Shown: in pieces, positions 27,042 through 27,156 of the stretch | How the letters are laid out: every line of letters starts with the position of its first letter | Numbering within the stretch: position 1 is the stretch's first letter | Source: Escherichia coli | GTDB lineage: Bacteria; Pseudomonadota; Gammaproteobacteria; Enterobacterales; Enterobacteriaceae | Strand: one strand, 5' to 3' | DNA: 64,000 bases | Assembly: GCF_046105845.1 (NCBI RefSeq) | Contig: NZ_CP151004.1 | Made by a program: the position numbers and the translations under genes | The notes under the pieces: model-generated | Told to the model about the DNA's origin: nothing | Database searches by the model: none | What the model saw: the letters and a program-made list of their open reading frames with translations, nothing else

Positions 27042-27156
27042 GCCGGATAAGGCGTTCACGCCGCATCCGGCATGAAATAAGGCGCACCGGGTTGCGCCAG
27101 CTTATCGGGCCTGGAGGAAAGCCATATGGCATACACCTGCAGGCCCGCATCCGGCA
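27042..27156. repeat. REP/BIME-type extragenic palindromic elements
   Basis: gccggataaggcgttcacgccgcatccggca and a second inverted REP-like copy (ggcccgcatccggc). Confidence 0.6.

What the first reader, a model, noticed from the sequence alone, without database searches (positions are those of the whole stretch)
27042..27156. REP/BIME cluster between sslE and pppA (a second cluster at 58561..58618)
Classic REP sequences occur in inverted pairs downstream of sslE, and a second REP cluster lies between yggR and ruvX. REPs can stabilise upstream mRNA and define differential expression within operons, here possibly favouring sslE over downstream secretion genes.
Basis: partly seen in the sequence, partly recalled or inferred. 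Interest (0 to 1): 0.2.

Follow-up and report, generated by a model that had tools for sequence, protein, structure and literature searches.

The report
Eroded REP repeats after sslE
The two spots are ordinary E. coli REP repeats, each with one intact copy plus deletion-damaged fragments of a larger cluster seen in other strains; they may slightly skew expression of neighbouring genes, but nothing here is new.

Summary
REP sequences are present at both stated positions, far above chance. The gene names (sslE, pppA, yggR, ruvX) are correct.

"Classic REPs in inverted pairs" overstates what this window holds. Each cluster has exactly one intact REP:
- Cluster 1: a y-type REP at 27038-27074, 33/34 identical to the published consensus, with GTAG mutated to GTAT.
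- Cluster 2: a z2-type REP at 58560-58589, 29/29 identical.

Everything else is truncated REP fragment. In cluster 1, 27093-27117 is the 3' part of an inverted z2-like REP and 27139-27156 is a y REP missing 17 internal bases.

Other E. coli strains (K-12, A20) carry three intact REPs in the same sslE-pppA spacer. Spacers of 197, 194, 163, 147 (this window), 139 and 129 nt form a nested deletion series. Cluster 2 is likewise a roughly 98-nt-deleted version of a three-REP spacer.

On the sslE-pppA transcript the remnants fold into three strong hairpins with no U-tract terminator and no promoter.

It is untested here. REP1 also lies 5 nt after the stop codon, which could instead lower SslE translation.

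This is a known kind of element and of low interest.

The parts
27031..27033 (+). sslE stop codon (TAA). The sslE ORF ends at 27033.
   Evidence: ORF list; RefSeq annotation of a 99.5%-identical locus.
27038..27074 (+). REP1, the only intact REP of cluster 1, y type. The + strand reads GTATGCCGGATAAGGCGTTCACGCCGCATCCGGCATG; the published consensus reads on the - strand. The foot tetranucleotide is GTAT instead of GTAG. The AA/GC internal mismatch is kept. The hairpin is -24.0 kcal/mol and its stem starts 5 nt after the stop codon.
   Evidence: 33/34 to the y consensus; inverted repeat I1; full-pattern hit; fold; sub-threshold Rfam naRNA4 hit, 35.3 bits, E 6.8e-5; dispersed copies.
27075..27092 (+). 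Linker AAATAAGGCGCACCGGGT. Its first part (GAAATAAGGCGCAC) resembles the sequence that follows y REPs at other BIME loci. It ends at the 16-nt deletion junction.
   Evidence: Compared with the srmB-yfiE and uvrB-yvcK BIMEs; allele alignment.
27081..27098 (+). Hairpin 2 (GGCGCA / TGCGCC, -10.9 kcal/mol). It is the shortened residue of an 11-bp stem present in the UTI89-type allele. On the - strand it is followed by a T-run and looks like a terminator.
27093..27117 (+). REP2 remnant: the 3' part of an inverted z2-like REP (TGCGCCAGCTTATCGGGCCTGGAGG). The head is lost in a 16-nt deletion and CTAC is changed to TGGA.
   Evidence: 18/21 to z2 positions 7-27; alignment with the intact REP2 of K-12, A20 and UTI89.
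27118..27138 (+). Short tail-to-tail linker. It is 11 nt shorter than the linker of the K-12 and A20 alleles.
27139..27156 (+). REP3 remnant: a y REP with a 17-nt internal deletion (GCAGGCCCGCATCCGGCA). GTAG is changed to GCAG. It lies in direct orientation to REP1.
   Evidence: Direct repeat D1, CCGCATCCGGCA; 11-12 nt of the y head only; alignment with the intact REP3 of A20 and K-12.
27106..27147 (+). Hairpin 3 (-26.3 kcal/mol), made from the tail of REP2 and the foot of REP3. It is locus-specific and present in about 2,570 of 5,426 complete E. coli genomes.
   Evidence: Inverted repeat I4; folds; single copy per genome.
27181..27990 (+). pppA (prepilin peptidase), the next gene of the sslE-T2SS-beta gene cluster.
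58560..58589 (+). Cluster 2: an intact z2-type REP (TGCCTGATGCGCTACGCTTATCAGGCCTAC, CTAC intact). It starts 31 nt after the yggR stop codon (58527-58529). It contains the exact IS621 natural target ATCAGGCCTAC at 58579-58589.
   Evidence: 29/29 to z2; full-pattern hit.
58594..58618 (+). Cluster 2: a truncated y REP in inverted orientation (GTAG + TCA + TTCACGCCGCATCCGGCA). Only the first 17 nt of the consensus survive and no REP hairpin remains. The ruvX stop codon is at 58644-58646 on the - strand.
   Evidence: 17/17 to y positions 1-17; about 98-nt deletion relative to strain SWHEFF_68; weak fold.

Best explanation
Both sites are ordinary E. coli REP elements (repetitive extragenic palindromes, the non-autonomous repeats associated with the TnpA_REP/RAYT transposase). 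Both are in a decayed state.

**Origin**
- In the sslE-pppA spacer an ancestral three-REP BIME (y REP, inverted z2-like REP, long linker, y REP), still intact in K-12 and A20, has been cut down by small deletions inside and between the palindromes.
- What remains is one intact y REP, half of the second REP and a gutted third REP.
- The yggR-ruvX spacer has likewise lost about 98 nt of a three-REP cluster, leaving one z2 REP and half a y REP.

**Likely effect (inferred, not shown)**
- Cluster 1 lies inside the polycistronic sslE-pppA-gsp transcript, where it folds into three stable hairpins (-24, -11 and -26 kcal/mol). There is no U-tract, so it is not an intrinsic terminator, and it has no promoter.
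- Its most likely effect is the generic, context-dependent REP effect: hairpins that block 3'-to-5' exonucleases and cause some RNA polymerase pausing or partial Rho-dependent termination. That would give modestly more sslE message than pppA-gsp message.
- Cluster 2 sits between convergent genes and probably acts only as a 3'-end hairpin for the yggR message.

The mutated GTAG/CTAC tetranucleotides in cluster 1 imply it is no longer a substrate for TnpA_REP.
For: **Identity**
- REP1 is 33/34 to the y consensus and the cluster-2 REP is 29/29 to z2 (references).
- The motifs are enriched over shuffles.
- Copies are dispersed, with a median of 31 and 11 places per genome.
- There is a sub-threshold match to the REP-derived Rfam family naRNA4.

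**Erosion**
- The alignment of seven alleles of 197, 194, 163, 147, 139 and 129 nt (two of 129 nt) shows nested gaps that fall inside otherwise intact REPs.
- The 34-nt deletion of the 129-nt alleles is flanked by a TCGGG direct repeat.
- Cluster 2 equals the SWHEFF_68-type allele minus about 98 nt.
- 27075-27160 is single-copy per genome.

**RNA**
- MFE is -66.1 kcal/mol, z = -3.8, with three hairpins. Every allele keeps at least two strong hairpins.
- There is no + strand terminator and no promoter.

**Operon and function**
- sslE is co-transcribed with the T2SS genes (PMC5012682).
- REPs show upstream-biased expression in tandem pairs, and REP325 has a dual stabiliser/partial-terminator role.
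- K-12 baseMean is 1472 for yghJ and 62.4 for pppA, about 4.2-fold per kb.
- GTAG is required for TnpA_REP binding and cleavage (PMC3333891).
Against: - No expression data exist for this allele.
- The K-12 read counts come from a different allele and keep falling between pppA and yghG, where there is no REP. yghE is high again. The gradient therefore cannot be assigned to the REPs.
- REP stabilisation is reported as context-dependent and often absent.
- REP1 is 5 nt from the stop codon, which by the Liang 2015 criterion predicts reduced SslE translation rather than a benefit.
- The direction of change, deletion rather than gain, is inferred from parsimony only. No outgroup was examined.
Confidence: 0.8

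Rival explanations
1. Neutral debris. The REP remnants are decaying selfish DNA with no measurable effect on sslE or pppA-gsp expression. The hairpins persist only because palindromic repeats leave palindromic fragments.
For: At least six length alleles coexist in E. coli, at roughly comparable frequencies for the main types. That is what is expected of an unconstrained spacer. The GTAG/CTAC tetranucleotides are mutated. REP effects on mRNA are reported as variable and often absent.
Against: Every allele keeps REP1 at the same short distance from the stop codon and keeps a second hairpin of about -26 kcal/mol. K-12 counts drop about 4-fold per kb across the spacer.
Confidence: 0.35
2. Translational brake on SslE. 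REP1's stem begins 5 nt after the stop codon, so the terminating ribosome would stall against the hairpin. That would trigger mRNA cleavage and tmRNA rescue and lower SslE output. This is the opposite of the first reader's idea.
For: REPs fewer than 16 nt from a stop codon are reported to down-regulate translation of the upstream gene (Liang 2015, summarised in PMC12306157). Here the stem starts at 27039 and the stop ends at 27033. The G-to-T change in GTAG lengthens the stem by 2-3 pairs.
Against: The claim rests on a general rule tested on a few genes. It was not tested for sslE, and SslE is abundantly secreted in many strains. The primary paper could not be read here.
Confidence: 0.2
3. Operon boundary. 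The cluster is a true terminator (intrinsic or strong Rho-dependent) that ends the sslE transcript, and pppA-gsp is transcribed from its own promoter.
For: Some REPs act as partial Rho-dependent terminators. There are strong hairpins. K-12 counts drop across the spacer.
Against: There is no U-tract terminator on the + strand and no sigma-70-like promoter in 26800-27400. Published work describes a single polycistronic mRNA from sslE through gspM.
Confidence: 0.08
4. DNA-level role. The clusters serve as binding or target sites on the chromosome (gyrase, IHF, DNA polymerase I, TnpA_REP, or IS621/IS110-type insertion) rather than acting through RNA.
For: Cluster 2 carries the exact IS621 natural target ATCAGGCCTAC. 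BIME linkers of the L type carry IHF sites in other loci.
Against: In cluster 1 all GTAG/CTAC tetranucleotides are mutated and the L-like linker is shortened. Protein binding cannot be tested with these tools.
Confidence: 0.07
5. Chance palindromes in a GC-rich spacer, not REPs at all.
For: None beyond the fact that 27075-27160 has no dispersed copies.
Against: Near-perfect identity to published REP sequences. Enrichment over shuffles. Tens of copies per genome.
Confidence: 0.01

Closest known systems
E. coli REP (PU) sequences of types y and z2
   Same: REP1 is 33/34 identical to the y consensus GCCGGATGCGGCGTGAACGCCTTATCCGGCCTAC. The cluster-2 copy is 29/29 identical to z2, GCCTGATGCGCTACGCTTATCAGGCCTAC. 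Both are extragenic imperfect palindromes with an internal mismatch and many copies per genome.
   Different: REP1 has GTAT instead of the conserved GTAG, which lengthens its stem. The other three copies in the two clusters are fragments that can no longer form a REP hairpin on their own.
BIMEs (bacterial interspersed mosaic elements: BIME-1, BIME-2, atypical)
   Same: [quoted passage not shown] The number of REPs at a given BIME locus is known to vary between strains (PMC3333891).
   Different: In this window no intact REP/iREP pair remains in either cluster. The second REP is a CCCGAT/ATCGGG variant of z2. The tail-to-tail linker does not match the L linker seen at the srmB-yfiE and uvrB-yvcK BIMEs. 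At best the ancestral element is an atypical BIME.
REP325 / naRNA4 in the yjdM-yjdN operon (Rfam RF02564)
   Same: It is an intercistronic REP array inside an operon. There it stabilises the upstream message and partially terminates read-through. REP1 gives a sub-threshold match to the naRNA4 model.
   Different: REP325 is a long array of intact REP hairpins. Here there is one REP plus two non-REP hairpins. The Rfam score of 35.3 bits is below the gathering score of 59.5, so this is not a member of that family.
malE-malF intercistronic REPs (Newbury et al. 1987; from my own knowledge, not checked here)
   Same: REP hairpins sit between a highly expressed upstream gene and less expressed downstream genes of one operon, and protect upstream mRNA from 3' exonucleases.
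   Different: That case was shown experimentally. For sslE-pppA there is no experiment.

Membership tests
E. coli REP sequence | Sequence match to a y, z1 or z2 consensus over the whole 30-40 nt unit | tested here: met
   REP1 27038-27074 is 33/34 to y. 58560-58589 is 29/29 to z2 (reference sequences from PMC12306157 and PMC11208160). This is not met for 27093-27117, 27139-27156 and 58594-58618, which cover only 21, 11-12 and 17 consensus positions.
E. coli REP sequence | Imperfect palindrome able to form a hairpin with an internal mismatch in the stem | tested here: met
   REP1 has a 10+4 bp stem with an AA/GC internal loop, -24.0 kcal/mol. The z2 copy is -13.2 kcal/mol.
E. coli REP sequence | Conserved GTAG (CTAC on the other strand) at the foot of the palindrome, required for TnpA_REP binding and cleavage | tested here: inconclusive
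   The cluster-2 z2 copy has CTAC (58586-58589), and GTAG is present at 58594-58597. In cluster 1 all three are altered: GTAT (27038-27041), TGGA in place of CTAC, and GCAG (27139-27142). K-12 and A20 have GTAG at the homologous positions (definition).
E. coli REP sequence | High copy number, dispersed, extragenic | tested here: met
   Median of 31 and 11 places per genome for queries containing REP1 and the z2 copy. Both lie between genes. Independent copies were read at srmB-yfiE and uvrB-yvcK.
BIME | [quoted passage not shown] | tested here: not met
   In this window each cluster has one complete REP and its inverted partner is truncated. The feature is met by the K-12 and A20 alleles of the same spacers.
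BIME-1 | z1 plus y separated by the conserved long L linker, often with an IHF site | tested here: not met
   There is no z1 copy in either cluster of the window. The cluster-1 linker (AAAGCCATATGGCATACA) does not resemble the L linker read at two reference loci. IHF binding itself cannot be tested.
BIME-2 | z2 plus y in tandem copies with a short S linker and s, l or r flanks | tested here: inconclusive
   Cluster 2 has z2 followed by a truncated y with a 4-nt tail-to-tail spacer. There are no tandem copies. The S, s, l and r motif sequences were in a figure that could not be read.
Rfam naRNA4 (RF02564) | Score at or above the family gathering threshold (59.5 bits) | tested here: not met
   35.3 bits, E 6.8e-5, at 27041-27083. 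There was no hit at gathering threshold anywhere near either cluster.
Intrinsic terminator | GC-rich hairpin followed by a U-run on the transcribed strand | tested here: not met
   No + strand site in 26800-27400 and none in 58400-58800. The only hit is on the - strand at 27098-27081.
REP as mRNA stabiliser or partial terminator | Measured effect on upstream mRNA half-life or on read-through | not testable with these tools
   Only indirect evidence: K-12 baseMean counts of 1472 for yghJ and 62.4 for pppA.

The most novel reading that the evidence does not exclude
The repeated small deletions in the sslE-pppA BIME are not neutral decay. They have been filtered so that every allele keeps REP1 next to the stop codon plus a second hairpin of about -26 kcal/mol. 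On this reading, the 197, 163, 147 and 129-nt alleles set different SslE-to-secretion-machinery ratios and contribute to the strain-to-strain differences in SslE secretion reported for ExPEC.
Probability: 0.1. Interest if true: 0.35.

Novelty: already known. Interest (0 to 1): 0.08.

Why it matters
It matters little. REPs are the most abundant and longest-known repeats of E. coli, and between-strain variation in REP number at a locus is already documented.

The only mildly useful points are these:
- The sslE-pppA spacer, inside an operon encoding a vaccine-candidate mucinase and its secretion machine, exists as a series of length alleles that differ in hairpin content.
- REP1 sits 5 nt from the sslE stop codon.

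If REP-dependent effects on mRNA or translation are real here, these natural alleles would be a ready-made test set for how REP content tunes the ratio of a secreted substrate to its secretion system.

Tried and rejected
- **K-12 REP annotation.** I looked for REP features in the K-12 MG1655 RefSeq record at both loci. The feature table returned by the tool lists none, so annotation could not be used as a test. Published consensus sequences were used instead.
- **Rfam at gathering threshold over the whole window.** Nothing at either cluster; only C0719 and a tRNA. At the permissive threshold there is only a sub-threshold naRNA4 hit on REP1 and nothing at cluster 2.
- **Promoter and terminator scans.** No promoter. 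The only terminator-like site is on the - strand. This rejects an intrinsic terminator and does not support an internal promoter.
- **Is 27075-27160 itself a dispersed repeat?** No. It is single-copy per genome, so it is REP debris rather than another repeat family such as ERIC/IRU or box C.
- **Primary papers.** Yang 2007 on the operon structure and Liang 2015 on REP and translation are not held. Both are cited second-hand through PMC5012682 and PMC12306157.
- **RepRanger supplements.** They hold nothing on these genes.
- **Covariation in the hairpins.** Not attempted, because the alleles are too similar to be informative. The one substitution seen in hairpin 3 (UTI89, T to C at the position of 27138) breaks a pair rather than compensating.
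- **Outgroup scan.** A genome-contig scan to polarise the deletions was judged not worth its cost for an ordinary finding.

Full report
**Observation**

The window is E. coli DNA. The ORF ending at 27033 and the ORF at 27181-27990 are annotated sslE and pppA in a 99.5%-identical RefSeq locus. The genes flanking the second site are yggR (+ strand, stop at 58527-58529) and ruvX (- strand, stop at 58644-58646).

- The REP head motif GCCKGATGCG occurs four times in 64 kb, all within the two stated intervals. Shuffles give 0.36 expected.
- A full head-loop-tail REP pattern occurs once in each interval, against 0.00 expected.
- Compared with published reference sequences (y consensus in PMC12306157; y, z1 and z2 queries in PMC11208160), 27038-27074 is 33/34 identical to y and 58560-58589 is 29/29 identical to z2.
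- Queries containing these copies hit a median of 31 and 11 places per genome across 5,426 complete E. coli genomes.
- Two independent loci read in full (srmB-yfiE, uvrB-yvcK) carry the same z2 and y units.

The REP identification and the coordinates are therefore correct.

**Anatomy of cluster 1 (spacer 27034-27180, 147 nt)**

Only REP1 (27038-27074) is intact.
- It keeps the AA/GC internal mismatch but reads GTAT where REPs have the conserved GTAG. The change adds 2-3 base pairs to the stem.
- 27093-27117 matches only positions 7-27 of a z2-like REP in inverted orientation.
- 27139-27156 matches only the first 11-12 nt of a y REP, and lies in the same orientation as REP1.
- The stretch 27075-27160 is single-copy per genome.

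"Classic REPs in inverted pairs" is therefore not what this window holds.

**Comparison of alleles**

The same spacer is 197 nt in K-12 and 194 nt in strain A20. Both carry three intact REPs: a y REP, an inverted GCCCGATGCGCC(A/T)GCTTATCGGGCCT unit, a 32-38 nt linker, and a second y REP. It is 163 nt in UTI89, 147 nt here and in CFSAN061770, 139 nt in an ETEC isolate, and 129 nt in two others.

The alignment shows nested gaps:
- A 17-nt gap inside REP3 and an 11-nt gap in the linker, shared by all short alleles.
- A 16-nt gap that removes the head of REP2, in this window and in the 139-nt allele.
- A 34-nt gap that removes nearly all of REP2 in the 129-nt alleles, flanked by a TCGGG direct repeat.

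The gaps fall inside units that are otherwise complete REPs, so loss from a three-REP BIME is the parsimonious direction. This is an inference, since no outgroup was examined.

Rough frequencies, from 3,533 genomes that have the sslE-pppA junction:
- About 2,570 carry the short-linker form, and 1,024 of those have the window's REP2-head deletion.
- The remaining 965 or more carry long alleles.

Between-strain variation in REP number at a BIME locus is already documented (PMC3333891).

**Cluster 2 (spacer 58530-58643, 114 nt)**

A perfect z2 REP (58560-58589) is followed after AAAC by GTAG and then only the distal 17 nt of a y REP (58594-58618).
- K-12 has a 183-nt spacer with three REPs.
- Strain SWHEFF_68 shares the window's left part and has z2, z1 and y. 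The window equals that allele minus about 98 nt.
- Strain PMV-1 has a z2-like REP, an L-like linker and a y REP.

This cluster lies between convergent genes. The z2 REP starts 31 nt after the yggR stop codon.

**RNA-level features**

Transcribed with sslE, 27020-27185 folds at -66.1 kcal/mol (z = -3.8) into three hairpins:
- REP1, 27039-27074, -24.0 kcal/mol.
- GGCGCA/TGCGCC, 27081-27098, -10.9 kcal/mol.
- A compound hairpin built from the REP2 tail and the REP3 foot, 27106-27147, -26.3 kcal/mol.

There is no U-tract terminator on the + strand and no sigma-70-like promoter in 26800-27400, and none of either at cluster 2. All seven alleles keep REP1 and a second hairpin of similar strength.

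**Function**

Published work describes sslE as co-transcribed with the 13 downstream T2SS-beta genes (PMC5012682 citing Yang 2007).

Recent work on K-12 finds that REP-containing tandem gene pairs have higher upstream/downstream expression ratios. [quoted passage not shown]

In that preprint's DESeq2 tables, baseMean values are:

| Gene | baseMean |
|---|---|
| yghJ | 1472 |
| pppA | 62.4 |
| yghG | 4.98 |
| yghE | 336.8 |
| yghD | 77.2 |

. Normalising by gene length myself gives about 4.2-fold more yghJ than pppA per kb. The decline continues where there is no REP, and it concerns the three-REP K-12 allele.

REP1's stem also starts 5 nt after the stop codon. REPs fewer than 16 nt from a stop codon are reported to stall ribosomes and lower translation of the upstream gene (Liang 2015, as summarised in PMC12306157).

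My best reading is a generic, modest, context-dependent REP effect on the polycistronic message: an exonuclease roadblock and partial attenuation. A purely neutral remnant is the main rival.

**Mobility**

TnpA_REP needs the GTAG tetranucleotide and the stem mismatch (PMC3333891). All three tetranucleotides in cluster 1 are mutated, so this cluster is probably inert as a transposase substrate. Cluster 2 keeps CTAC and GTAG and contains the exact natural IS621 target ATCAGGCCTAC.

**Comparison with known families**

- Both intact copies pass the REP tests: sequence, palindrome with mismatch, copy number and extragenic position. The exception is REP1's GTAT.
- Neither cluster in this window passes the BIME definition of two complete inverted REPs, although the homologous spacers of other strains do.
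- The Rfam naRNA4 hit on REP1 is below threshold (35.3 against 59.5 bits).

**Verdict**

This is a correct but slightly over-read identification of ordinary, partly decayed REP elements. The kind is already known and the interest is low.

Noticed in passing
window 20000-44000 and 44000-56000: The best identity to any of 5,426 complete E. coli genomes is only 97.4% over the 24-kb glcA-sslE-gsp-speC stretch and 98.9% over the next 12 kb. Either the source lineage has no close complete genome in the collection, or the sslE-gsp region is mosaic.
   Followed up: partly
window 58579-58589 (+): An exact copy of the natural IS621 (IS110-family, bridge-RNA recombinase) target ATCAGGCCTAC lies inside the z2 REP. 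It is the only exact copy in the window.
   Followed up: partly
window 27098-27081 (- strand): A terminator-like hairpin (GGCGCAACCCGGTGCGCC) followed by TTATTTCATG lies on the strand antisense to sslE-pppA. The 6-bp stem with its 6-nt loop is the product of the 16-nt deletion that is specific to this allele type.
   Followed up: no
window 20015-20236 (-): A full-length match to the Rfam sRNA C0719 (298 bits) lies just upstream of the 560-aa ORF at 20315-21997, which is probably glcA.
   Followed up: no
window 39093-39168 (-): tRNA-Phe (GAA), pheV by synteny with K-12, lies downstream of a gsp gene cluster that is annotated gspC, gspD and gspE in near-identical genomes. K-12 carries an internal deletion of this cluster.
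   Followed up: partly
L006 (NZ_LR882978.1) 323-345, homologous to window 27022-27045: In this ETEC isolate the sslE reading frame ends differently (…GAATAA). The stop codon abuts REP1 directly and replaces its GTAG foot, so the 3' end of sslE and the REP overlap in some lineages.
   Followed up: no
window 58530-58559: A 30-nt AT-rich stretch (GGCTAAAGTGATTGATTAGTTTAGTAAATA) lies between the yggR stop codon and the z2 REP. It is absent from K-12 and present in SWHEFF_68, and partly in PMV-1.
   Followed up: no
window 27157-27180: No Shine-Dalgarno-like sequence is visible in the 24 nt before the pppA start codon (AGTTACAACAAATAACCTTTAACC ATG). This suggests weak or coupled translation initiation of pppA.
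   Followed up: no
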